IMG/VR virus record: IMGVR_UViG_3300044557_000151
Span: 59,723 to 123,722 of that record
Length of the DNA: 64,000 nucleotides
Direction: 5' to 3' (one strand)
DNA from: a virus
Taxonomy: Duplodnaviria; Heunggongvirae; Uroviricota; Caudoviricetes
Shown here: positions 15,819-64,000 of the stretch, one piece after another
Layout: every line of letters begins with the position of its first letter
Position numbering within the stretch: position 1 is the first letter of the stretch
Program-made: the position numbers and the translations under genes
The notes under the pieces: model-generated
Told to the model about the DNA's origin: nothing
What the model saw: only the letters and a program-made list of their open reading frames with translations
Database searches by the model: none

Positions 15819-15836
15819 ATGAACCGCTTCTATTGT

Positions 15837-15910
15837 GTCTCCGTAGCTCAGATGGATAGAGCATAGATCTTCTAAATCTACGGTCATCGGTTCAAATCCG
15901 ATCGGAGACA
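15837..15910 (+). tRNA. tRNA-Arg(TCT)
   Basis: Manual cloverleaf: acceptor GTCTCCG/CGGAGAC, anticodon loop CTTCTAA, T-arm ATCGG-TTCAAAT-CCGAT. 74 nt. Confidence 0.8.
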
Positions 15911-15994
15911 TTGAGCTGAATTAATTATTCACCTGGTTTGACAACCCTCCAATTTAACTCAAACGTGTGCAGGACTGATCAACCTGTTACATAT

Positions 15995-16065
15995 GCGGAT
16001 ATAGTTCAATGGTAGAATTCTAGTTTTCCAAACTAGCGACGCGAGGCCGGTACTCGTTATCCGCT
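15995..16065 (+). tRNA. tRNA-Trp(CCA)-like with atypical T-loop
   Basis: Acceptor GCGGATA/TATCCGC. Anticodon stem CTAGT/ACTAG with loop TTCCAAA. The T-loop GCCGGTA lacks the conserved TTC. May be a pseudo-tRNA. Confidence 0.4.
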
Positions 16066-16096
16066 TTATATATTTATAAGAAGAGGAGGTTAAAGT

Positions 16097-16780
16097 ATGG
16101 AGATTTGGAAGCCGATGGTTGGATATGAGGGCCTTTACGAAGTGTCTAATGACGGACATGCGCGTTCTGTATCAAGAGAAATTGTGGATAGCGTTGGACG
16201 CAGACGCACCCTAAAAGGCAAGGCAGTCTCGTTCACTATAAATCCCAGAGGATATCTTACCTTTCACGCCACGAAAAACGGTAATAGAAGAACAGCATTC
16301 ATTCATGTTGAAGTGGCGAAGGCGTTTATAGAAAAACCTATTTCTGACGAGCGTTTAGATGTGAATCACAAGGACCATAATAAATTGAATTGCTCAATTG
16401 AGAATCTTGAGTGGTTGACACACGGAGATAATGTGAGAGATCTCAGCATATACCGGGCAAGGACATCAAACACATTAACGAGATTTACAAGGGTCAATGA
16501 TAAGATTGTCAAGCTACCAGATAAGACTTGCGTAGATTGTGGAAAAACCGTTGAGTTCACATCCACTCGTTGTCCTTCATGTGCGGCAAGCGCGTCAATG
16601 ACTTTCACAAACAACGTCGGAGTTATCCCGAAAAATATGCTAGTTTCCGTCCTTCGTGAGAATAATGGGAACTTTGTTAAGGCTGCTGCTGAGTTCGGAA
16701 TTACAGATAACTCCTTGAGAAAGTGGTGTAAGAAATATAATTTGCCATTTCACTCATCGGACTATAAGAAAGCATCATAA
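16097..16780 (+). CDS. HNH homing endonuclease (NUMOD4 + HNH + C-terminal HTH)
   Basis: GYEGLYEVSNDG (NUMOD4 motif), VNHKDHNKLNCSIENLEW (HNH motif) and a C-terminal helix-turn-helix. RBS AAGAGGAGG. Confidence 0.75.
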   Translation: MEIWKPMVGYEGLYEVSNDGHARSVSREIVDSVGRRRTLKGKAVSFTINPRGYLTFHATKNGNRRTAFIHVEVAKAFIEKPISDERLDVNHKDHNKLNCSIENLEWLTHGDNVRDLSIYRARTSNTLTRFTRVNDKIVKLPDKTCVDCGKTVEFTSTRCPSCAASASMTFTNNVGVIPKNMLVSVLRENNGNFVKAAAEFGITDNSLRKWCKKYNLPFHSSDYKKAS

Positions 16781-16798
16781 TGAATTGCATTCGCTTTT

Positions 16799-16882
16799 GC
16801 CGAAGTGGTGGAACTGGAAGACGCGCAGGATTTAGGCTCCTGTGTTGGGAACAACGTGTGGGTTCGAATCCCACCTTCGGCA
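16799..16882 (+). tRNA. tRNA-Leu(TAG)
   Basis: Class II tRNA with long variable arm. Acceptor GCCGAAG/CTTCGGC, anticodon stem CAGGA/TCCTG with loop TTTAGGC, T-arm GTGGG-TTCGAAT-CCCAC. Confidence 0.75.
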
Positions 16883-17120
16883 TCGCCCCTCACTTCACGG
16901 TGGTGAGAGGCGTGAATCAATACTAGTCATGCGGTGTTGGTTCCTCCTTATATATGATATTCGTGCGACCGTCCTGAACGAAGGATTTAAGTCTTATTGC
17001 TTGAATCGGGTTTGAATCCCGACAGCCGCATTCCAGCAAACGTGTATGGCCGCGTGGCGGCGACGAGCGCTGGAATTTAGGTGTGGCACCCTTAACCACA
17101 CCACTCGTTATACTGAAGTG

Positions 17121-17344
17121 GGCAAGAAGACATGTTCTTTAAAGGACGTGATGAATTGCACGTATCTGCGTCAGCAGGTACAACAGCCTTGGTAGCGAAA
17201 ACCAAACTACCAACCTGAACTCAACGTTAAGGCGCGGAACGCGCCGTGGTCAATAACCGTAACCTCTGCATTGTTAGTTTAATGCTAATGGTGTAAGTCA
17301 GCGGTGTTCCCAGAAGCTCGGTCATTTATGACCGAGTAGTTCAC
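17121..17344 (+). mobile_element. ORF-less miniature IS200/IS605 derivative (left end + right end/omega-RNA scaffold)
   Basis: 17121..17160 is nearly identical to the left end of the full IS at 54477. 17245..17344 is nearly identical to the right end at 56190..56287 and ends in the same GAGTAGTTCAC. No ORF between the ends. Confidence 0.6.
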
Positions 17345-17348
17345 GAGT

Positions 17349-17421
17349 GCAACTGTAGCTCAGCGGTGGAGCGGCTGCTCAGAAGAGTAGAGTGTCGCTG
17401 GTTCGATTCCAGCCAGTTGTA
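17349..17421 (+). other. degenerate tRNA-like element (pseudo-tRNA, Phe-like loop CAGAAGA)
   Basis: Good acceptor stem, D-arm and T-arm (GCTGG-TTCGATT-CCAGC) are present. The anticodon stem cannot pair. Begins 4 nt after the mini-IS right end. Confidence 0.35.
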
Positions 17422-17574
17422 GATCCGTGGACTATGTCTAAAATACCTATGTTCTCCTGGTGTCGGTTTGAGGAGACTAACTTTTGGCGGGATGTTCGCA
17501 CATAAGATTGCGAACTTTGTTTCGGATAGTAAAACCGTTAGTCGTGATTGCGAAGTACAAGCTTTCGCGCATAT

Positions 17575-17648
17575 GCTTTCTTAGCTCAGTTGGTTAGAGC
17601 ACCTGACTGTTAATCAGGGTGTCACAGGTTCGAGTCCTGTAGAAAGCG
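17575..17648 (+). tRNA. tRNA-Asn(GTT)
   Basis: Acceptor GCTTTCT/AGAAAGC. Anticodon stem CCTGA/TCAGG with loop CTGTTAA. T-arm ACAGG-TTCGAGT-CCTGT. Confidence 0.85.
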
Positions 17649-17933
17649 TATCTGGATAAATTAAGTTTACGACCAAAAAGCATCCAGAGAAACGCTAACG
17701 TATTGCAGCTGGACTTTAGAGCGATACGAGAGGGCAATCAGCTGTCGGACGGCAGGAAGTTGTCGTAGGTGGATTTGCAACACTTATAGAAAAAGGCTGG
17801 CATGTTCTTGCGCACGAACAAAGCTGGTTAAGATTAAAGTGTGGCGCAGTAGTCGGATAGGTGATTAGTAGTCTGGTGGTCGCAGATGAAAGATCTTACC
17901 GGACTAGGTAGTTCGACTCTACCATCCACCATT

Positions 17934-18006
17934 GGTTGTGTGGTGTTAATGGCTAACACGCCTGATTGTCTATCAGGAGCTTAGGGTTCAATTCCCTACA
18001 CGACCG
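17934..18006 (+). tRNA. tRNA-Asp(GTC)
   Basis: Acceptor GGTTGTG/CACGACC. Anticodon stem CCTGA/TCAGG with loop TTGTCTA. T-arm TAGGG-TTCAATT-CCCTA. Confidence 0.8.
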
Positions 18007-18476
18007 TCAAGCCGAAAGGTTTGAGTTCTTTGCTGTTAATATAACTACCTATCGGATTGGCTAATGACCGCCGATATTTCGGGGATGTAACGGTCTCGAC
18101 AGGATATGCTTAACTGACAAAGCATGTAGAGTGATGACTTAATCATCAACTTGCTAAATGCAAAACAAAACGATTTAGTTGCGGCCTAAGTTTAACTTAG
18201 TATAGCAACACTTACCCCAACGTATGATACCAGATACAAGACGTTGGCTAAACAGGCTGGTGTAGGATGACACTTACTTATTTTCATAAGCTTATCCGAA
18301 ATCTATTGAAAATATGCTCGTCTACTCCGATTGCCCATTTGCGGAAGACGCTAAGACTAATAAGTGAGCTAAGCATGTAGAATTGTCAGATAGAAGCATG
18401 TGTTGGAAACGGGTTCAACTCCCGTCATCTCCATATAGTATGTCGTTACACAATAACATACTAGATATAGTGCAAC

Positions 18477-18564
18477 GGAAAGTTACTCAAGTGGCTGAAG
18501 AGGCGCCCCTGCTAAGGGTGTAGGTCGAGAAATCGGCGCATGGGTTCAAACCCCATACTTTCCA
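18477..18564 (+). tRNA. tRNA-Ser(GCT)
   Basis: Class II tRNA. Acceptor GGAAAGT/ACTTTCC, anticodon loop CTGCTAA, long variable arm, T-arm ATGGG-TTCAAAC-CCCAT. Confidence 0.8.
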
Positions 18565-26579: not shown

Positions 26580-27731
26580 ATGATAAATATTGTTTTAAAA
26601 GGCATTAAACTAAGAATATACCCTAGCAAAGAGCAACAGCTAAGTATAAAGCTTAACTTTGGATATAACCGATTTGTTTGGAATCAGATGCTGGGTATGT
26701 TACAAGAAAGATATGCTAATAACCCTAAGCTATCTTTTCCTAGCGCCTTTACTTTAAATAACTTGTTACCAACAATGAAGATAGAATATTCTTGGCTTAA
26801 CGATGCTGAAAGTCGTAGCTTACAAATAACCTGTAAAAACTTAGTTGATGCTTACAAGAAGTTCTTTAAGACCCATAAGGGGTTTCCTAAGTTTAAATCA
26901 AAGAAGTATCCTAAGCAAAGCTACCAAACAAATTCTACAATAAAGCTAAAGGCCAACGAAGTTAAGTTTCCGAAATTAGGCTATATGAAGTTTAAAGGTA
27001 GTAGCAAAAAACTAAATGAGATTACTAAGATTAAGCTAGGAACTATTAAACTTACACCTACTGGTAAATACTATCTTGTACTGATTGCAGAGTGTGAAAA
27101 CCAAGCACTCCCTAAATCAGGAAATCAAGTAGGTATTGATATGGGGTTAGCTGATTTGATGATTACTAGTGACGGTGTAAAGTATCCTACTTTAAGATTT
27201 GACAAGATACTAGCTAAGAAAAAACGTTACTGGGAAAAGCGTTTAGCTCGTAGACGACTTCAAGCTCAAAAAGAGATTGCTTGGGATAAGCATAATAAGG
27301 TATTAAATCCTAGGGAACTTTCCAACTTTAAAAACTATCAGAAAGCAAAGCTAATGGTTGCTAAGTATTCAGAAAAAATAGCTAACCAGCGTAAAAACTA
27401 CCTTCATATGCTTTCAAAACAGCTTGTATCACAATATGATGTGATTAAGATAGAAGATTTGAAAACCAAGAATCTTCTTAAGAATCATAAGTTATCTAGA
27501 GCAATAGCTAATGCAAGTTGGAAAGAACTTAGAAGACAACTAGAGTACAAGTGCTTATGGTATGGGAAACAGTTAGTCACTGTGAACCCTAGAAAAACCT
27601 CACAAATATGTTCTAGTTGTGGCTATGATGACGGTAAGCATACCTTAGATATTAGAGAGTGGACATGTCCCAAGTGTGGTGTTCACCACGACAGGGACAT
27701 TAACGCGGCTATCAATATCTTAAATGCTTAA
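26580..27731 (+). CDS. tnpB: TnpB RNA-guided endonuclease
   Basis: N-terminal KLRIYPSKEQ...FGYNRFVWNQ. RuvC-I GIDMG and RuvC-II IEDLKTK. C-terminal CSSCG...CPKCG zinc finger followed by RuvC-III DRDINAAINIL. Confidence 0.9.
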   Translation: MINIVLKGIKLRIYPSKEQQLSIKLNFGYNRFVWNQMLGMLQERYANNPKLSFPSAFTLNNLLPTMKIEYSWLNDAESRSLQITCKNLVDAYKKFFKTHKGFPKFKSKKYPKQSYQTNSTIKLKANEVKFPKLGYMKFKGSSKKLNEITKIKLGTIKLTPTGKYYLVLIAECENQALPKSGNQVGIDMGLADLMITSDGVKYPTLRFDKILAKKKRYWEKRLARRRLQAQKEIAWDKHNKVLNPRELSNFKNYQKAKLMVAKYSEKIANQRKNYLHMLSKQLVSQYDVIKIEDLKTKNLLKNHKLSRAIANASWKELRRQLEYKCLWYGKQLVTVNPRKTSQICSSCGYDDGKHTLDIREWTCPKCGVHHDRDINAAINILNA

Positions 27732-27854
27732 ATGACTAGTGTGGGCTGGAACAGCCCTTAGTAAATAGTCGTAACCGCTACACCTCATTCAACGAATGAA
27801 GTGCAAGTCAGCGATGTTCCTAGAAGCTCGGTCATTCATGGCCGAGTAGTTCAC
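27732..27854 (+). ncRNA. putative omega-RNA scaffold / IS right end
   Basis: Structured segment 3' of tnpB with hairpins. Conserved with the other two right-end copies (GTTCC-AGAAGCTCGGTCATTCATGGCCGAGTAGTTCAC). Confidence 0.45.
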
Positions 27855-54575: not shown

Positions 54576-55019
54576 ATGAAAGACACTAATAGACTTACGT
54601 ATGGTAGAACTTCTGTCTACAATCTAAATTACCACATCATCTGGGGAACTAAATACCGTAACCGGGTTCTGAAAGGAAATGTTGAGGTTACGCTCAAGCA
54701 AATTATGTATGAAATCGCAGAGCAATATGGTTTTAGCATCGACCACATGGAAATTGGTCAGGATGACCATATTCACTTGCTGGTGAGTGCACCGCCAAAA
54801 CTATCAGTTACCAATATTGTGCGATGGCTAAAAGGCATTTCAGCGCGCCAGCTATTCGTCGCGTGTCCGGAGCTACAGCGAAGTTACTGGAAACATGCAG
54901 GACGCCACTTATGGTCGCCCAGTTATTACGTAGAAAGTATTGGCACAACTAATCAGAATGCAGTCGCTAAGTACATTGATGACCAAAGGTTGAAGGAGGT
55001 GAAGATTAATGACAATTAA
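54576..55019 (+). CDS. tnpA: IS200-like Y1 (HUH) transposase TnpA
   Basis: YHIIWGTKYR and HIHLLVSAPP (HuH) motifs plus a downstream Tyr. ATG 54576 (track frame from 54504). Confidence 0.85.
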   Translation: MKDTNRLTYGRTSVYNLNYHIIWGTKYRNRVLKGNVEVTLKQIMYEIAEQYGFSIDHMEIGQDDHIHLLVSAPPKLSVTNIVRWLKGISARQLFVACPELQRSYWKHAGRHLWSPSYYVESIGTTNQNAVAKYIDDQRLKEVKINDN

Positions 55020-56148
55020 AGCTTATAAACTTAGGATCTACCCAAATGAGGCTCAAAAGCTTCAAATGGAAAAGAACTTTGGTATGTGTCGATTTGTATG
55101 GAACCAGCTTCTCGCTATGCAGAATGCGCGCTACAAGAACGGTGGTGACTACGTCAACGAGTTTGGCATGAATTACCTATTTAAGCCCCTGAAAAAAGAA
55201 TACCAATGGCTTAAAGAAGCAGACTCAACCAGCTTAATAGCTGTGAGCCACAATCTGCACTTAGCATTTAAAAACTTTTTCAAAAAGCATGAAGGGTATC
55301 CGAAGTTTAAGACTAAGCGGTTCACCCGCCCTGCATATCGTTCTAACGCAGTTAACCACAATATCGTTCTTATGGACGAGCAACATATTCGGCTGCCAAA
55401 ACTTGGATCAATAGCATTTCGATCTGGACAGTTACCAAGGGGTAAAGTTAAAACTGCAACAGTTACTAGAAGTCCCGCTGGTAAATACTATGTACTTGTG
55501 ACTACGGAAGTCGAAATAGAGAAATGGAACCCAACAGGCGCTAGTGTCGGCTTGGATATGGGAGTCGCTGACCTTGTAATCACTAGTGATGGTATGAAGT
55601 TTGCGACCAAACGGTTTGATAAAGCTCTTGCCAAAAAGAAACACTACTGGGAGAAACGATTGGCCCGTAGGCGCGCCTTAGCTCAAAAAGAAATTGCCTG
55701 GGATAAACACCTCAAGGTAGAATCGCCACGTCAGTTATCTGACTTCAAGAATTACATGAAGGCTAAAGAAATGGTGGCGAAATACAGTGAAAAAGTGTCT
55801 AATCAACGTCACGATTACCTTCAAAAGATCAGTACTGAGCTCGTTTCAGAATATGATGTGATTAAATTAGAAGACCTGAAAACCAAGGGCCTGATGAAGA
55901 ATCACAAACTGTCACGAGCAATTGCAAATCAGTCGTGGCGTGAATTACGTCTGATGTTGGAATACAAAGCAGCTTGGTATGGTAAGAGTATCATTGCCGT
56001 GTCTCCGTATAAGACCTCACAACGTTGTTCAGTATGTGGCTACGATGATGGCAAACATGAGCTAGATATCCGCGAATGGACTTGCCCACAATGCCATACT
56101 CATCACGATCGTGACATAAATGCCGCAAAGAACATTCTAGTCGCATAA
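55009..56148 (+). CDS. tnpB: TnpB RNA-guided endonuclease
   Basis: KLRIYPNEAQ...FGMCRFVWNQ. RuvC-I GLDMG, RuvC-II LEDLKTK. Zinc finger CSVCG...CPQCH. RuvC-III DRDINAAKNIL. Confidence 0.9.
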   Translation: MTIKAYKLRIYPNEAQKLQMEKNFGMCRFVWNQLLAMQNARYKNGGDYVNEFGMNYLFKPLKKEYQWLKEADSTSLIAVSHNLHLAFKNFFKKHEGYPKFKTKRFTRPAYRSNAVNHNIVLMDEQHIRLPKLGSIAFRSGQLPRGKVKTATVTRSPAGKYYVLVTTEVEIEKWNPTGASVGLDMGVADLVITSDGMKFATKRFDKALAKKKHYWEKRLARRRALAQKEIAWDKHLKVESPRQLSDFKNYMKAKEMVAKYSEKVSNQRHDYLQKISTELVSEYDVIKLEDLKTKGLMKNHKLSRAIANQSWRELRLMLEYKAAWYGKSIIAVSPYKTSQRCSVCGYDDGKHELDIREWTCPQCHTHHDRDINAAKNILVA

Positions 56149-56287
56149 AAAGCAAAGACCCAAATGGTCTATCGGCACGGGACGTGCCTTGGCTAATAAC
56201 CGTAACCTCTGCATTGTTAGTTTAATGCTAATGGTGTAAGTCGGCGGCGTTCCCAGAAGCTCGGTCATTCATGGCCGAGTAGTTCAC
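56149..56287 (+). ncRNA. putative omega-RNA scaffold / IS right end
   Basis: Nearly identical to 17245..17344. Hairpins GGCACGGGACGTGCC and CTCGGTCATTCATGGCCGAG. Confidence 0.45.
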
Positions 56288-56356: not shown

Positions 56357-56388
56357 TTGTTTAACAAGATGTTAAAGGGGAGATTAGT

Positions 56389-56880
56389 ATCACAGAAACG
56401 ATTCGACCTGATTATTACAAACAGGGCGCAAGTGAGACTTGGGACGACATCAAAGCATGGGGACGTACACCATACTTAGGTTTTATCCTTGGGAACACAC
56501 GAAAGTACATTGATCGATATTGGGGAAAGAATGGAGTTAAGGATTTACGTGAACTTCAAACATATCTAGCTCACGTCATTCAGGACCCTGATACTGTTAA
56601 ACCAGCAAAAGTTGCCGACATCCGCGCTAACGTGCAAAAAATTGTTAGCGATGCGGTTGAAGCGTTTGTAGATTCGGCTTGTGAAGATTCATCACAACTG
56701 ACCACCATTCAATTAGTGGTTACTGGATTGATCTCATACGAAGAAGACCTGATTAAGAAGGCTGACGAGACCAACGATGCTGGCGTTACTTTAAAGGAAG
56801 CAGCAGAAGCTGCTACCATGTTGGATGACACCGTCAAGGAGGCTACAACTGTTGAGCAAACGATTAACACTGAAGCGTGA
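56389..56880 (+). CDS. DUF3310-like phage protein, probable non-ATG (ATC) start
   Basis: The open frame from 56365 encodes ...RPDYYKQG..ETWDDIKAWG..GNTRKYIDRYWGK... upstream of the first canonical start (GTG 56632). SD AAAGGGGAG sits 6 nt before ATC 56389. Confidence 0.45.
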   Translation: MTETIRPDYYKQGASETWDDIKAWGRTPYLGFILGNTRKYIDRYWGKNGVKDLRELQTYLAHVIQDPDTVKPAKVADIRANVQKIVSDAVEAFVDSACEDSSQLTTIQLVVTGLISYEEDLIKKADETNDAGVTLKEAAEAATMLDDTVKEATTVEQTINTEA

Positions 56881-60566: not shown

Positions 60567-61331
60567 ATGAACAACTTGGAAAACACTAACACAACTAAAT
60601 TTACTGGTACTTATTTTCAATGGATCAAGCATCAATTAACCGGATGGGACACTTTCCCATGGGCATTGTGGGGATTCGGTATCGGATTTGAATTAGCCCT
60701 GCTGCTCACCAATAAGATTACACCATTAGCTATCATTTCATTCATCGGCGTATTCTTCGGTATGTGGTGTACAGTCGCAATGTCGTCAGGCGGTACTGAC
60801 GCTAACGGTAATCGAGTAATCTCTCACTCGATTAATGGATTGTTGGGCGCAATCAGTGTAATCGCCTATGTCTATGTTAACTGGACCGCAGGGCACTGGT
60901 TCAGTGTCCTGGATCAATTTGCCTACTTCTTCTTAATCGATTTTGGTTTGATGATTAACTGGCGCACATGGGGACATGGCGAAAACGGCGGCAAGATGAA
61001 TGAACTCTCCAAAAAAGGCTGGGCAATCGTTACTGCTATTATCCTGATTGGTTGGTTTGCCTTCTACCATCTTGGCGTAGTATTAAACGACAGTAATCCA
61101 ATTTGGGATTCCCTCACGTTCGCTATTGGCGCTACGGCAAGCTGGTTGTGCTTCAAGCGTTACACATCGACATACACATTATGGATTTGTTCAAATATTG
61201 TAAATTTGGTTCTTTGGTTTACTGCCCTGCAAGCAGGGTATAGTCAATCAGCACTCGTTATGCTTGTTATGAACGTATTCTATATGGCTACTGCGATCTA
61301 CGGTAAGTTTGTGTGGAAGGTGGAAAAGTAG
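60567..61331 (+). CDS. pnuC: PnuC-family nucleoside/NMN transporter
   Basis: 254 aa, about 7 TM helices, Trp-rich. NWTAGHWFSVLDQF and the loop layout are typical of PnuC. Confidence 0.6.
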   Translation: MNNLENTNTTKFTGTYFQWIKHQLTGWDTFPWALWGFGIGFELALLLTNKITPLAIISFIGVFFGMWCTVAMSSGGTDANGNRVISHSINGLLGAISVIAYVYVNWTAGHWFSVLDQFAYFFLIDFGLMINWRTWGHGENGGKMNELSKKGWAIVTAIILIGWFAFYHLGVVLNDSNPIWDSLTFAIGATASWLCFKRYTSTYTLWICSNIVNLVLWFTALQAGYSQSALVMLVMNVFYMATAIYGKFVWKVEK

Positions 61332-61334
61332 TCC

Positions 61335-62780
61335 TTGCCAGTATCATTAACATTATCTCAAGTGCAACAACGTATCGACGAAAAGTTTAAGGAAAACATT
61401 GAGGTACATGATGACTTCGTAGGGTGGACACACCCTTGTACAATGAGTTGTCGAAAGTGCGGAACAAGCTGGTTTATGAATCCTAGAAATCTGTGTGACA
61501 TGCGACACGGATGTGGGTGCGACTCGTGTAACAAGAAGACCTTTCAACCTCACAATCTGAAAGCTGCCGAACAGGTACGGGACGAGATTCTTGATGCAAC
61601 CGACGGAACAACGCAATTGCAGGTAAACGCCTACACCCGTTCTCAAGAGAAGTGCGACTTTGTTTGCTTAATCTGTGGCAATACCTGGTGCGCCGTTCCG
61701 TCGGTGCTTTTATGGGAGTCTAAAAACAGAAGAACAACTGGTTGCTCAAAGTGTTCACGTAGGTTGCAGGCGCAAAGACAGCAGCGAACAATCGAAGATG
61801 TAAGAGTGTATGTCGCGGATTGTGCACCGGAAATCACCGTTCTTGCGTATGACCCAATTAAGCACCGTGTCGATATGAAGTGCGATAAGTGCGCGTATGA
61901 GTTTACTACAGGATTCGACTCTGATAAAGAAAAGGGGAAGACGCGCTTCCGCTGTCCTAGATGTACTCCTTGCGAATCATCTGGAGAACGGTTCGTTCGA
62001 CGTGTTCTTGACTACAATCAAATCGAGTATCAACAAGAATACTCGTACTTCAACACGATTGAGAAGACCTGGCAGCGATTTGATTTCTTGCTTCCAGTTC
62101 AAAAGCTAGTAATTGAAATCAATGGTGATCAACACACCAACGAATCGAATTCCTTCTACAAGACTCGCATGGTATACCTCGATAAAGTCAAACGTCAATG
62201 GGCGCTAGATCAAGGGTTGCATGTACTGGATATAGATTATCCAACGGAGTCCATGATTTCACAATTAGTTGGTGAGCTCGGTTTACTCGCTGTGCCTCCG
62301 TTCGATTACAAAGACTCGCGAGAGTCTGAATATCAGGACGTTATTGCGTATCTAACGTCGGGGCATAATCTTATCGAAACACAGGCCAAATTCAACATGG
62401 GTCCCAAGGTAGTGAATAGATACATTAAGATGCGCGGATACGCAAATTATTGGGATTTATACCACACTGAACGGATGAAAAGATTGGGACTAACAAATGA
62501 TCTCATCATCGATTGGCTTAAGCATAACCACTTCTCGCATATTGAAGAAGAGATCGGGATTACTAAGAAGTATGTAATTAACCATATACTTAATAATCCA
62601 GACTACCCATACACCAACCTAACCGACATCAAAGATGAAGCAATTCGGTCAGATGAATTTACAAAGTATCGCAAGACTCACTCCAAGCGAGCAACTAGTA
62701 AATACTTTATGACTGATGCAGCCCACATTATTAAATTAATTGGGGCTGAAAAATGGGATAGAAAAGTTGAGGTGTCGTAA
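61335..62780 (+). CDS. multi-zinc-ribbon protein with Vsr/DUF559-like PD-(D/E)XK endonuclease domain (paralog of 44921)
   Basis: Many CxxC pairs. GERFVRRVLDYNQIEY...FDFLLPVQKLVIEINGDQH...LHVLDIDY matches the nuclease domain of the 44921 protein. C-terminal HTH-like tail. Confidence 0.5.
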   Translation: MPVSLTLSQVQQRIDEKFKENIEVHDDFVGWTHPCTMSCRKCGTSWFMNPRNLCDMRHGCGCDSCNKKTFQPHNLKAAEQVRDEILDATDGTTQLQVNAYTRSQEKCDFVCLICGNTWCAVPSVLLWESKNRRTTGCSKCSRRLQAQRQQRTIEDVRVYVADCAPEITVLAYDPIKHRVDMKCDKCAYEFTTGFDSDKEKGKTRFRCPRCTPCESSGERFVRRVLDYNQIEYQQEYSYFNTIEKTWQRFDFLLPVQKLVIEINGDQHTNESNSFYKTRMVYLDKVKRQWALDQGLHVLDIDYPTESMISQLVGELGLLAVPPFDYKDSRESEYQDVIAYLTSGHNLIETQAKFNMGPKVVNRYIKMRGYANYWDLYHTERMKRLGLTNDLIIDWLKHNHFSHIEEEIGITKKYVINHILNNPDYPYTNLTDIKDEAIRSDEFTKYRKTHSKRATSKYFMTDAAHIIKLIGAEKWDRKVEVS

Positions 62781-62857
62781 GACCCTTATCGACAATGAGA
62801 CCTCGCGTCCGAGTGGGTGGAATGCCCATACATAATCAATGAAAGTGACGGTACAAT

Positions 62858-63589
62858 ATCATTCTGTACATTTTAGGATCAATTGGCGCTGGCAAGACAA
62901 GCCTAACCGATTTATTAGCAAAAGACCTACAAACTACCGCATACTATGAAGACATTAGTGGAAATGGCATGATTGGGAGTATGCTTGAAAAATTCTACGA
63001 ATCAGGGATTGACTCAAGAAAGCGCACGGGTGCGATGCTCCAGATCGCCTTCTTAACATTCCGTTACCAGCAATTAAAACGAGCAATTGTTGAACGTAAC
63101 GCTATTCTGGATTCTAGCCTCGAATCCGATTTTGTAATGGCAAAACAGTTGCATGACAACGGCGAAATTGATGATGTGGACTATAACATCTATACTACCT
63201 TATCACAAGAAATGCAGGCTAACGTGAATGGTATGCCATGGAGCGGATATCCAGATCTCGCCATCTACTTAAAGATTGATCCGGAGAAGGAAATCGAGGA
63301 GATTCAAGGACGTGGCCGCGAAATGGAAGATATCCGCAAAGACCCTGAATTGGTTGATTACTATCATCGCGTCAACAAAGCTTATCGCGAATGGTCTAAA
63401 GGTTATACTCGTGGAATTATGCTGACGATTGATCGTGATAAATACGATTTCGTTAATAATCTCGACGATCGCAACACTGTCCTAAATCAAATCGAACATA
63501 AACTTGTTGATCTCGGCAAGTTGTCCCCCGAAGAGTTTGACGCGATTCGTGCTCGCCGTGAACCATTAACTCGCGGTTTGCCGTTCTAA
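62858..63589 (+). CDS. deoxynucleoside kinase (dAK/dGK family), probable ATC/ATT start
   Basis: P-loop ILGSIGAGKTSL at 62870..62905 lies in frame upstream of the first ATG (62969), with no ATG/GTG/TTG after the in-frame stop at 62846. The C-terminus IQGRGREMEDIRKDPELVDYY...DRDKYDFVNNLDDRN aligns with Lactobacillus dAK/dGK. Confidence 0.75.
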   Translation: MILYILGSIGAGKTSLTDLLAKDLQTTAYYEDISGNGMIGSMLEKFYESGIDSRKRTGAMLQIAFLTFRYQQLKRAIVERNAILDSSLESDFVMAKQLHDNGEIDDVDYNIYTTLSQEMQANVNGMPWSGYPDLAIYLKIDPEKEIEEIQGRGREMEDIRKDPELVDYYHRVNKAYREWSKGYTRGIMLTIDRDKYDFVNNLDDRNTVLNQIEHKLVDLGKLSPEEFDAIRARREPLTRGLPF

Positions 63590-63756: not shown

Positions 63757-63785
63757 AAAAAGCGCCCCTGAATAGGGACGCTTTT
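63757..63785. terminator. bidirectional rho-independent terminator
   Basis: AAAAGCGCCCC-TGAATA-GGGACGCTTTT, with an A-tract on one side and a T-tract on the other. Lies between the plus-strand dNK gene and the minus-strand rplS. Confidence 0.6.
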
Positions 63786-63809
63786 AATAAACATATAAAT
63801 ACCCGTGGA

Positions 63810-64000
63810 TTAACGGCGCTTTTCTTTGATACGCGCAGCCTTACCACGTAATGCCCGCAAGTAGTACAACTTGGCACGGCGTACTTGACCATGACGGGTA
63901 ACTTCGATCTTTTCAACACGTGGGGTGTGTAATGGGAAAGTCCGTTCAACACCAACGCCGCTGGAGATCTTACGAACGGTGTAAGTCGCAGAAACACCAG
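63810..64000 (-). CDS. rplS: 50S ribosomal protein L19, C-terminal part (gene runs off the window)
   Basis: Minus-strand translation ...[56 protein letters not shown] matches the L19 C-terminus. Stop codon complement at 63810..63812. Confidence 0.85.

What the first reader, a model, noticed from the sequence alone, without database searches (positions are those of the whole stretch)
62846..62969. Deoxynucleoside kinase whose essential P-loop lies upstream of the first ATG: implied ATC/ATT initiation or a hidden error
The kinase P-loop ILGSIGAGKTSL (62870..62905) is in frame with the rest of the enzyme and aligns with the MIVLSGPIGAGKSS N-terminus of lactobacillus dAK. Between the in-frame stop at 62846 and the first ATG at 62969 there is no ATG, GTG or TTG, only ATC at 62858, ATT at 62861 and CTG at 62864. 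A functional kinase therefore needs a non-canonical start, most simply ATC at 62858, which gives M-ILYILGSIGAGK. Otherwise the gene is truncated or a sequencing error converted ATG to ATC.
Basis: seen in the sequence. Interest (0 to 1): 0.55.

Follow-up and report, generated by a model that had tools for sequence, protein, structure and literature searches.

The report
Phage kinase gene starting at ATT/ATC
A phage deoxynucleoside kinase gene has no ATG, GTG or TTG before its essential ATP-binding loop and almost certainly starts at an isoleucine-type codon (ATT 62861, possibly ATC 62858). Related phages do the same repeatedly, so gene finders call these kinases as truncated proteins.

Summary
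After in-frame TGA stops at 62840 and 62846, the kinase frame reads CGG TAC AAT ATC ATT CTG TAC ATT TTA GGA... with the P-loop GSIGAGKT. There is no ATG, GTG or TTG before 62969.

It is not a sequencing error. Two independent metagenome contigs (96-97% identical) carry the same ATC ATT CTG. It is not a pseudogene either: dN/dS against them is about 0.1.

The closest relatives begin ATG/GTG/TTG-Leu-Tyr-Ile-Leu-Gly, which puts the start at ATT 62861. A Shine-Dalgarno-like GAAAGTGACGGT (-9.4 kcal/mol) lies 8 nt before ATT and 5 nt before ATC. The out-of-frame ATG/GTG and the internal ATG have no such site.

At least 8 of about 29 phage-type lineages of this kinase have ATT, ATC or ATA at the initiator position and no canonical start. 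All keep a ribosome-binding site 6-8 nt upstream. None of about 24 chromosomal lineages does this.

A second gene in the window (DUF3310, ATC 56389) shows the same arrangement.

AUU/AUA initiation is already documented in Staphylococcus and Listeria. This is therefore a new, recurrent example of a known mechanism, inferred here and not shown experimentally.

The parts
62861..63589 (+). Deoxynucleoside kinase CDS as proposed here: 242 aa plus TAA, starting at ATT 62861
   Evidence: Pfam PF01712. PDB dNK matches. 101 homologues, most starting M-I/L-YILGSIGAGK. The ATT is homologous to the ATG/GTG/TTG of L049, L046, L002 and L047.
62861..62863 (+). ATT, the favoured initiation codon (near-cognate, presumably read by initiator tRNA as Met)
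   Evidence: It is the position of the initiator Met in the closest relatives. Aligned spacing from the SD-like site is 8 nt, inside the 6-8 nt range of all other ATH-start lineages.
62858..62860 (+).
   Evidence: It is served by the same SD-like site at 5 nt spacing. It aligns with Met1 of the Mycoplasma dGK 2jaq.
62841..62852 (+). Shine-Dalgarno-like sequence GAAAGTGACGGT, i.e. GAAAGGAGGT interrupted by two single-base bulges
   Evidence: RNAduplex with the 16S 3' end gives -9.4 kcal/mol, in the top 6.7% of all 25-nt windows of the 64-kb window. It is the only SD-like site near the gene start.
62840..62848 (+). Two in-frame TGA stops (62840-62842 and 62846-62848) that close the kinase frame upstream
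   Evidence: Read directly from the sequence. They rule out an upstream in-frame start and make readthrough unlikely.
62876..62899 (+). P-loop GSIGAGKT (Walker A)
   Evidence: G11 and K12 are invariant in the alignment of 28 relatives.
62969..62971 (+). First canonical in-frame ATG. It is an internal Met of the conserved motif GN.MIGSML, not the start.
   Evidence: No SD before it (-3.3 kcal/mol). A product from here lacks beta1, the P-loop and alpha1.
62839..62847 (+). Out-of-frame ATG 62839 and GTG 62845; the kinase frame is +1 relative to them
   Evidence: No SD (-3.3 and -1.3 kcal/mol). No shift site is conserved among lineages.
61335..62780 (+). HNH/homing-endonuclease-like gene immediately upstream. 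It is part of a PnuC + endonuclease block that is absent from the sister contig L038.
   Evidence: PHROG 559/7140/9084. blastn of L038 against the window shows homology resuming at 62788.
60567..61331 (+). PnuC-type nicotinamide riboside/NMN transporter, a recurrent neighbour of this kinase in phages
   Evidence: Pfam PF04973. The same neighbour appears in L002, L003, L046 and L049 and in phage 3-521.
56389..56880 (+). Second gene of the window with the same anatomy: a DUF3310 protein with ATC 56389 preceded by AAAGGGGAG plus 6 nt. The first canonical start comes only 81 codons later, at GTG 56632.
   Evidence: Pfam PF11753 over residues 6-60; 44 phage records match the N-terminal part. SD -9.3 kcal/mol.

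Best explanation
The gene at 62861-63589 is an intact, selected, phage-borne deoxynucleoside kinase. Its translation starts at a near-cognate isoleucine-type codon: most likely ATT 62861, possibly the adjacent ATC 62858, or both. The 30S subunit is positioned by the SD-like GAAAGTGACGGT at 62841-62852. Initiator tRNA then reads AUU/AUC with a wobble-position mismatch, so the protein begins Met-Leu-Tyr-Ile-Leu-Gly-Ser-Ile-Gly-Ala-Gly-Lys-Thr. Reporter data from other Firmicutes suggest such a start gives roughly a tenth of the output of AUG, so the likely effect is deliberately low, and possibly IF3-sensitive, expression of the kinase. What is shown: the sequence, its reproducibility, purifying selection, the conserved ribosome-binding geometry and the recurrence in relatives. 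What is inferred: that initiation actually occurs there, which of the two codons is used, and the reduced expression level.
For: (1) L001 and L038, from two other metagenomes and 96-97% identical, carry the same 'TGA CGG TAC AAT ATC ATT CTG'.
(2) dN/dS of the window against L038 and L001 is 0.08-0.12 (16 synonymous against 5 non-synonymous changes). Both sequences have ATT, so selection acted while ATT was already present.
(3) The P-loop segment is as conserved as the rest of the protein. N-terminal dN against L039 is 0.13, compared with 0.15 for the rest, at saturated dS. G11 and K12 are invariant.
(4) The closest canonical relatives read ATG CTC TAT (L049), GTG TTA TAT/TAC (L046, L002) and TTG CTA TAC (L047). 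The window reads ATT CTG TAC.
(5) The SD-like duplex is -9.4 kcal/mol with aligned spacing of 8 nt to ATT. Out-of-frame ATG 62839, GTG 62845 and the internal ATG 62969 have no SD.
(6) Eight lineages have ATT/ATC/ATA at the initiator position and no ATG/GTG/TTG between the in-frame stop and the P-loop. They are the window group, the L003 group (5 samples), L039, L050/51, L052, L053, L054 and L060. All have SD duplexes of -9.2 to -12.1 kcal/mol at 6-8 nt. They are scattered over the tree.
(7) Close pairs that include ATH lineages show dN/dS of 0.04-0.07.
(8) None of the chromosomal Lacticaseibacillus, Schleiferilactobacillus or Tetragenococcus homologues does this; all have ATG or GTG.
(9) The L003 and L039 leaders, including ATA ATA, are 85% identical, whereas four-fold sites in the gene are at 27% identity.
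(10) The DUF3310 gene in the same window has the same arrangement.
(11) Precedent exists in Firmicutes. In S. aureus, Ribo-Ret mapped AUU/AUA starts (infC, cvfC1, ccpN, citZ) giving about 10-30% of AUG output, all with strong SDs (PMC13009471). In Listeria, rsbW ATG->ATA/ATT mutants remain translated, with ATG > ATA > ATT (PMC13068326).
Against: There is no direct evidence of initiation: no ribosome profiling, N-terminal peptide or reporter data. The window's SD is interrupted by two bulges and is weaker than the 'extended' SDs reported for staphylococcal non-canonical starts. The N-terminal 36 codons differ from L038/L001 by only 1 synonymous and 1 non-synonymous change, so selection on that segment within the ATT lineage itself cannot be measured; it rests on deeper comparisons. 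ATT and ATC cannot be told apart computationally. The window group, L001 and L038 are one lineage, so they prove sequence accuracy but are not independent evolutionary events.
Confidence: 0.8

Rival explanations
1. Decaying or truncated gene. The start codon was lost by an ATG->ATT mutation. Either nothing is made, or only a P-loop-less 206-aa fragment from ATG 62969, which would be inactive as a kinase.
For: Gene finders call exactly this (P0001, 206 aa). ATG->ATT is a single G->T change. Within the ATT lineage the N-terminal segment has too few differences to test selection.
Against: dN/dS is 0.08-0.12 across the gene since the ATT-bearing ancestor. The ORF and all invariant catalytic residues are intact. 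The SD is retained before ATT and none precedes ATG 62969. The same state occurs in at least 8 lineages, some only 54-65% identical to each other and all intact. This is not expected of transient pseudogenes.
Confidence: 0.08
2. Programmed +1 ribosomal frameshift, or another form of recoding. Translation starts at the out-of-frame ATG 62839 or GTG 62845 (MKVTVQYHSVHFR...) and shifts +1 into the kinase frame before the P-loop, for example at TTT AGG, which resembles Ty1 CUU-AGG-C.
For: A start codon in the frame one base behind the kinase frame exists in several ATH lineages: GTGA overlapping the stop in the window, L003, L039 and L054; ATGA in L053; ATG in L050. TTT AGG occurs in that frame in the window, L003 and L039.
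Against: Neither ATG 62839 nor GTG 62845 has an SD (-3.3 and -1.3 kcal/mol). No shift site is shared across lineages, and L052 and L060 have no such upstream start. TTT AGG is simply the other-frame reading of ATT TTA GG (Ile-Leu-Gly), which also occurs in ATG-start genes (L009, L011, L049). The kinase-frame residues I-(I/L)-Y-I-L upstream of that site match the family consensus. The TAC/TAT difference between L003 and L039 is synonymous only in the kinase frame. GTGA also matches the 3' part of the extended SD (GGAGGTGA).
Confidence: 0.04
3. Initiation without a defined start codon of the usual kind: termination-reinitiation coupled to an upstream ORF, a leaderless transcript, or CTG 62864.
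For: TACAAT (62852-62857) and, in L003/L039, TATAAT overlap the start region and resemble -10 boxes. CTG is also a near-cognate codon.
Against: The promoter scan finds nothing upstream of the gene. A transcript starting downstream of that -10-like box would begin after the ATT and lack an AUG. The upstream gene ends 78 nt away in another frame. CTG has no SD at usable distance (-3.7 kcal/mol, 14 nt). There is no conserved RNA structure (z +0.6 to +0.8) and no Rfam match.
Confidence: 0.05
4. A sequencing or assembly error turned ATG into ATC or ATT.
For: None beyond the prior that such errors exist.
Against: The start region is identical in two independent assemblies from other samples (L001 from JGI 3300060804, L038 from JGI 3300014203). 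Analogous ATA/ATT/ATC starts occur in contigs from many other samples.
Confidence: 0.01

Closest known systems
Non-canonical AUU/AUA start codons that attenuate translation in bacteria: infC and pcnB in E. coli; infC (AUA), cvfC1 (AUU), ccpN (AUA) and citZ (AUA) in Staphylococcus aureus; rsbW ATA/ATT variants in Listeria
   Same: A near-cognate AUH codon sits exactly where relatives have AUG/GUG/UUG. A Shine-Dalgarno site lies at normal spacing. The unusual codon is conserved among relatives. The expected consequence is reduced, possibly IF3-dependent, expression (PMC13009471, PMC13068326).
   Different: Here the gene is phage-borne (a nucleotide-salvage kinase), not a host regulator. The trait recurs in many separate lineages of one gene family, interleaved with ATG, GTG and TTG lineages, rather than being fixed in one orthologue. 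The window's SD is bulged rather than 'extended'. There is no experimental mapping.
Deoxynucleoside kinases of Lactobacillaceae and their phages (Pfam PF01712; e.g. annotated dNK of Lactobacillus phages 3-521, Lpa804 and 521B; chromosomal dNK of Lacticaseibacillus; solved structures 2jaq and 8puu)
   Same: The domain, P-loop, conserved Glu, DSS motif and RGR lid motif are the same. So is the genomic company (PnuC transporter; nucleoside 2-deoxyribosyltransferase in relatives). Identity is 70-77% to Lacticaseibacillus chromosomal enzymes and 56% to phage 3-521.
   Different: All cultured-phage and chromosomal members examined start with ATG, GTG or TTG. The window's gene does not.
Programmed +1 frameshifting (prfB, Ty1 CUU-AGG-C)
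   Same: An out-of-frame upstream ATG/GTG exists, with a TTT AGG heptamer-like string in that frame.
   Different: The upstream start has no ribosome-binding site and no conserved shift site, and the kinase-frame codons upstream of the putative shift site are conserved as protein. Judged not to apply.

Membership tests
Deoxynucleoside kinase family (Pfam PF01712, dNK) | Significant match to the family profile over the whole domain | tested here: met
   E 1.4e-28, 100.5 bits against a cut-off of 27, residues 8-220 matching profile 3-202/203. PDB dNK/dGK hits at E 1e-13 to 1e-14.
Deoxynucleoside kinase family (Pfam PF01712, dNK) | N-terminal beta-strand followed by the Walker A P-loop GxxxxGK[ST] | tested here: met
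   ILYILGSIGAGKTS is encoded at 62861-62902. G11 and K12 are invariant in 28 relatives. This holds only if translation starts at or before about 62864.
Deoxynucleoside kinase family (Pfam PF01712, dNK) | Conserved catalytic/substrate residues: Glu after the P-loop helix, the D/E-R/S-S motif and the arginine-rich lid | tested here: met
   E30, D84-S85-S86 and R151-G152-R153 with E156 are invariant columns in A1 and A2. Their functional roles are taken from general knowledge of the family and were not tested.
Deoxynucleoside kinase family (Pfam PF01712, dNK) | Kinase activity and substrate specificity | not testable with these tools
   Needs an enzyme assay or complementation.
Genes with a functional non-canonical AUH start codon (infC/pcnB/ccpN type) | No canonical start codon that could yield the conserved N-terminal domain | tested here: met
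   There is no ATG, GTG or TTG between TGA 62846 and ATG 62969.
Genes with a functional non-canonical AUH start codon (infC/pcnB/ccpN type) | Near-cognate codon at the position homologous to the start codon of relatives | tested here: met
   ATT 62861 aligns with the ATG/GTG/TTG of L049, L046, L002 and L047 and with the M of MIYILG in 40+ others.
Genes with a functional non-canonical AUH start codon (infC/pcnB/ccpN type) | Shine-Dalgarno sequence at functional spacing | tested here: met
   -9.4 kcal/mol, 8 nt to ATT (5 nt to ATC). ATH lineages range from 6 to 8 nt and from -9.2 to -12.1 kcal/mol. Caveat: the window's SD has two bulges.
Genes with a functional non-canonical AUH start codon (infC/pcnB/ccpN type) | Persistence of the non-canonical codon under purifying selection | tested here: met
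   ATT is shared by the window, L001 and L038 at dS about 0.11 and dN/dS about 0.1. ATA ATA is shared by L003 and L039, whose four-fold sites are saturated.
Genes with a functional non-canonical AUH start codon (infC/pcnB/ccpN type) | Direct demonstration of initiation at that codon (toeprint, Ribo-Ret, N-terminal sequencing, reporter) | not testable with these tools
   No expression data are available.
Programmed +1 frameshift genes | Upstream ORF with its own ribosome-binding site, and a conserved shift-prone site followed by a slow codon | tested here: not met
   There is no SD before ATG 62839 or GTG 62845. No motif is shared by the ATH lineages, and some lack any upstream out-of-frame start.
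Pseudogene | Relaxed selection and/or a disrupted reading frame | tested here: not met
   dN/dS is 0.04-0.12 in close pairs. The 242-codon frame is intact in every ATH lineage.

The most novel reading that the evidence does not exclude
ATT/ATC/ATA initiation is not a one-off here. It may be a selected expression-tuning device in a group of large Lactobacillaceae phages. It is used repeatedly in the deoxynucleoside kinase (8-11 of about 29 lineages) and in other genes (DUF3310 in this window). It may be coupled to a change in start-codon proofreading during infection, such as an altered IF3-to-ribosome ratio or a phage factor, so that these genes switch on at a particular stage.
Probability: 0.12. 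Interest if true: 0.8.

Novelty: new member of a known kind. Interest (0 to 1): 0.5.

Why it matters
Standard gene finders and PGAP accept only ATG, GTG and TTG. As a result, this kinase and its relatives are stored in public protein collections as 199-236-aa fragments without the P-loop (P0001, P0053, P0075-P0081, P0096), which would be read as inactive. The DUF3310 gene in the window has no match at all in the searched collection, perhaps because it was never called (my inference). If ATH starts are real here, a measurable fraction of phage genes is mis-annotated or missed. In addition, phages would offer a natural series of the same gene with ATG, GTG, TTG, ATT, ATC and ATA starts behind comparable ribosome-binding sites. 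That is a ready-made system for measuring how start-codon choice tunes expression in Gram-positive hosts.

Tried and rejected
- RNA structure or riboswitch in the leader: the fold z-score is +0.8 for 62775-62900 and -0.9 to +1.4 for 18 start regions. No Rfam hit.
- Promoter or leaderless start: no promoter-like site upstream.
- A phage-encoded initiator-like or Ile-type tRNA that could explain ATH starts: the window has tRNAs Arg, Leu, Asn, Asp, Ser, an aberrant tRNA, a likely Gly (my reading of the anticodon) and a tmRNA, but none of that kind.
- +1 frameshift: rejected as described under the rivals.
- Population variants of the window's start region in IMG/VR (pattern with the six start bases free): no match.
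- Homologue search for the DUF3310 protein in the 5.8-billion-protein collection: nothing found. tblastn against phages did find relatives.
- The genome-contig scan did not find the window's own genome; the best hit was 77% (Lacticaseibacillus pantheris).
- The RNAduplex 'spacing' first printed was inconsistent because long imperfect duplexes were chosen. It was replaced by spacing aligned to the CCUCC core.

Full report
**Observation.** In the kinase frame, two stops (TGA 62840 and TGA 62846) are followed by CGG TAC AAT ATC ATT CTG TAC ATT TTA GGA TCA ATT GGC GCT GGC AAG ACA AGC. This encodes RYNIILYILGSIGAGKTS, and the frame runs on to TAA 63587-63589. The first in-frame ATG, GTG or TTG is ATG 62969, so a mechanical ORF call gives 206 aa without the P-loop. 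The protein read from the stop matches Pfam dNK over its full length (E 1.4e-28). It also matches solved deoxynucleoside and deoxyguanosine kinases, whose own N-termini align with the residues just before the P-loop.

**Not an error and not a dead gene.** Two contigs from other metagenomes, L001 and L038, are 96-97% identical to the window here and carry exactly the same TGA CGG TAC AAT ATC ATT CTG.
- The window differs from them by 15-16 synonymous and 5-7 non-synonymous changes, giving dN/dS of 0.08-0.12.
- All three have ATT, so this selection acted after the canonical start was gone.
- Against more distant relatives, the first 36 codons are as constrained as the rest of the protein: dN 0.13 against 0.15 for L039, with synonymous sites saturated.
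- The invariant P-loop Gly and Lys, the conserved Glu, the DSS motif and the RGR lid motif are all present.

**Which codon.** Most of the 101 homologues begin M-I-Y-I-L-G-S-I-G-A-G-K.
- The closest clade (82-84% identical) begins M-L-Y-I-L-G. At DNA level these read ATG CTC TAT (L049), GTG TTA TAT (L046), GTG TTA TAC (L002) and TTG CTA TAC (L047).
- The window reads ATT CTG TAC at the same place. ATT 62861 is therefore the homologue of the start codon, one G->T change away from ATG.
- The only Shine-Dalgarno-like sequence nearby is GAAAGTGACGGT (62841-62852). This is GAAAGGAGGT with two bulged bases, -9.4 kcal/mol with the 16S 3' end, in the top 6.7% of all windows of this sequence.
- Aligned to the CCUCC core, it lies 8 nt from ATT and 5 nt from ATC.
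- The out-of-frame ATG 62839, the out-of-frame GTG 62845 and the internal ATG 62969 have no such site: -3.3, -1.3 and -3.3 kcal/mol.
Both could be used.

**The same thing happens in relatives.** Several database proteins of this family are called from an internal Met and lack the P-loop (P0001, P0053, P0075-79, P0081, P0096). Their contigs show why. In each case the frame is open back through an intact P-loop to a stop, with no ATG, GTG or TTG, and an isoleucine codon sits at the initiator position.

| Lineage | Sequence at the start |
|---|---|
| L003 group (five samples, one an IMG/VR viral contig) | ATA ATA TAC |
| L039 | ATA ATA TAT |
| L050/51 | ATC ATT TAT |
| L052 | ATT ATA TAT |
| L053 | ATT ATT TAT |
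| L054 | ATT ATT TAT |
| L060 | ATA ATT TAT; its 98%-identical sister L061 has an ATG two codons upstream, abutting the SD |

- With the window group this makes eight lineages out of about 29 phage-type lineages, scattered over the tree.
- Three more (L057/58, L061, L062) have ATH at that position plus a canonical codon placed too close to the SD to use it.
- All eight keep an SD-like duplex of -9.2 to -12.1 kcal/mol at an aligned spacing of 6-8 nt from the ATH codon.
- Close pairs that include ATH lineages show dN/dS of 0.04-0.07.
- The ATH lineages L050, L052 and L053 are only 54-65% identical to each other, yet all are intact.
- The leaders of L003 and L039, including ATA ATA, are 85% identical, while four-fold sites in the gene are at 27% identity.
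- None of the roughly 24 distinct chromosomal homologues (Lacticaseibacillus, Schleiferilactobacillus, Tetragenococcus) lacks ATG or GTG. My hand-computed Fisher test of 8/29 against 0/24 gives about p = 0.005.
- Four annotated cultured phages all start with ATG. The IMG/VR contigs whose lengths match known cultured phages (L065-L069) start with ATG or TTG.

**Context.** The window is a phage-like replication and nucleotide-metabolism region, with every gene on the plus strand.
- It holds a DNA polymerase, a DnaB-like helicase, exonucleases, RtcB, an ExoV/Dda-like helicase and two TnpB-type transposase genes, together with a tRNA cluster and a tmRNA.
- The kinase is the last gene before the 3' part of rplS on the other strand. 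Contig L038 ends at window position 63764, which suggests a phage-host junction there.
- Directly upstream lie a PnuC transporter and an HNH/homing-endonuclease-like gene. L038 lacks this block, and homology resumes at 62788, 73 nt before the start. The endonuclease insertion therefore did not create the unusual start.

**A second case in the same window.** The stop-to-stop ORF 56365-56880 has its first canonical start 89 codons in.
- AAAGGGGAG is followed after 6 nt by ATC 56389.
- The product from there matches Pfam DUF3310 over residues 6-60, and its N-terminal part matches 44 phage records. All of this lies upstream of the first GTG.
- No other convincing case was found among ORFs of at least 90 codons.

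**Rivals.**
- A +1 frameshift from the out-of-frame ATG/GTG is unlikely. Those codons have no SD, no shift site is shared among lineages, some lineages lack any such upstream start, and the kinase-frame codons upstream of the candidate site (TTT AGG) are conserved as protein.
- There is no leader RNA structure, Rfam family or promoter.
- No special tRNA is encoded in the window.

**Comparison with what is known.** Initiation at AUU/AUA is established. Ribo-Ret in S. aureus mapped AUA (infC, ccpN, citZ) and AUU (cvfC1) starts behind strong SDs, giving about 10%, and up to 30%, of the AUG level (PMC13009471). In Listeria, rsbW start-codon mutants ATG->ATA/ATT remain translated, with ATG > ATA > ATT (PMC13068326). 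The present gene fits that mechanism in every feature that can be tested computationally, so it is a new member of a known kind. What is new is the setting and the recurrence: a phage salvage kinase in which roughly a third of lineages use ATH, plus another gene in the same phage. These genes are systematically mis-called in databases. That the weak start serves to keep kinase expression low is my inference and is untested.

Noticed in passing
window 56365-56880 (SD 56374-56382, ATC 56389): A DUF3310 gene has no canonical start before its conserved domain: AAAGGGGAG, then 6 nt, then ATC. The first GTG comes 81 codons later. It appears to be a second ATH-start gene in the same phage, and it has no match in the large protein collection.
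   Followed up: partly
window 18081-18436 and 15836-18564: A phage-borne tmRNA (Rfam 112.9 bits, tag AKQNDLVAA) sits inside a tRNA cluster (Arg-TCT, Leu-TAG, Asn, Asp, Ser-GCT). Rfam also finds a tRNA at 15995-16065 that ARAGORN misses; I read its anticodon as UCC, with an odd T-arm.
   Followed up: no
window 17348-17422: A tRNA-like gene has an abnormal anticodon arm: ARAGORN reports a two-base anticodon 'ga', and the Rfam alignment shows an 8-nt insert. It lies immediately after a copy of the TnpB-end hairpin motif.
   Followed up: no
window 17316-17344, 27826-27854, 56259-56287; also L047 2632-2673 and L049 about 1472-1530: The hairpin motif GCTCGGTCATTCATGGCCGAGTAGTTCAC occurs three times (0 expected by chance). 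Two copies lie just downstream of the TnpB/IS605-type genes 26580-27731 and 55009-56148. The same motif abuts the dNK start in the related contig L047. These are probably transposon right ends or guide-RNA regions spreading among these phages.
   Followed up: partly
window 60568-62788 compared with L038 2111-2928: The PnuC plus HNH/homing-endonuclease-like block of the window is replaced by about 800 unrelated bases in the 96-97% identical contig L038. This looks like a mobile-endonuclease-associated cassette swap next to the kinase.
   Followed up: partly
window 63764-64000: Contig L038 ends at 63764. From 63810 the minus strand encodes the C-terminal part of ribosomal protein L19 (rplS). This is a likely prophage-chromosome junction, or an assembly join. 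No integrase or att site was examined.
   Followed up: no
window 63440-63589 compared with P0082: The last 45 or so residues of the kinase (DFVNNLDDRNTVLNQIE.KLVDLGKLS..EFD.IRARREPLTRGLPF) are nearly identical to those of P0082, which is only about 52% identical overall. This points to mosaic recombination inside the gene.
   Followed up: no
L039 against L046, and L003: The L039 kinase is 98% identical in protein to L046 (GTG start, strong AGGAGG). Its leader and ATA ATA start, however, are those of the distant L003. A recombination junction lies right at the gene start and swaps a canonical start for an ATA start.
   Followed up: partly
L057/L058 and L062 (IMG/VR contigs of 126-129 kb): Two kinases of different sub-clades share an 83% identical leader: ...GAGAAAGAAG TTG GTT AGT ATT ATY. 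The TTG abuts the SD, and ATT lies at the usual 7 nt. Gene callers use the TTG or an upstream ATG; the real start may be the ATT.
   Followed up: partly
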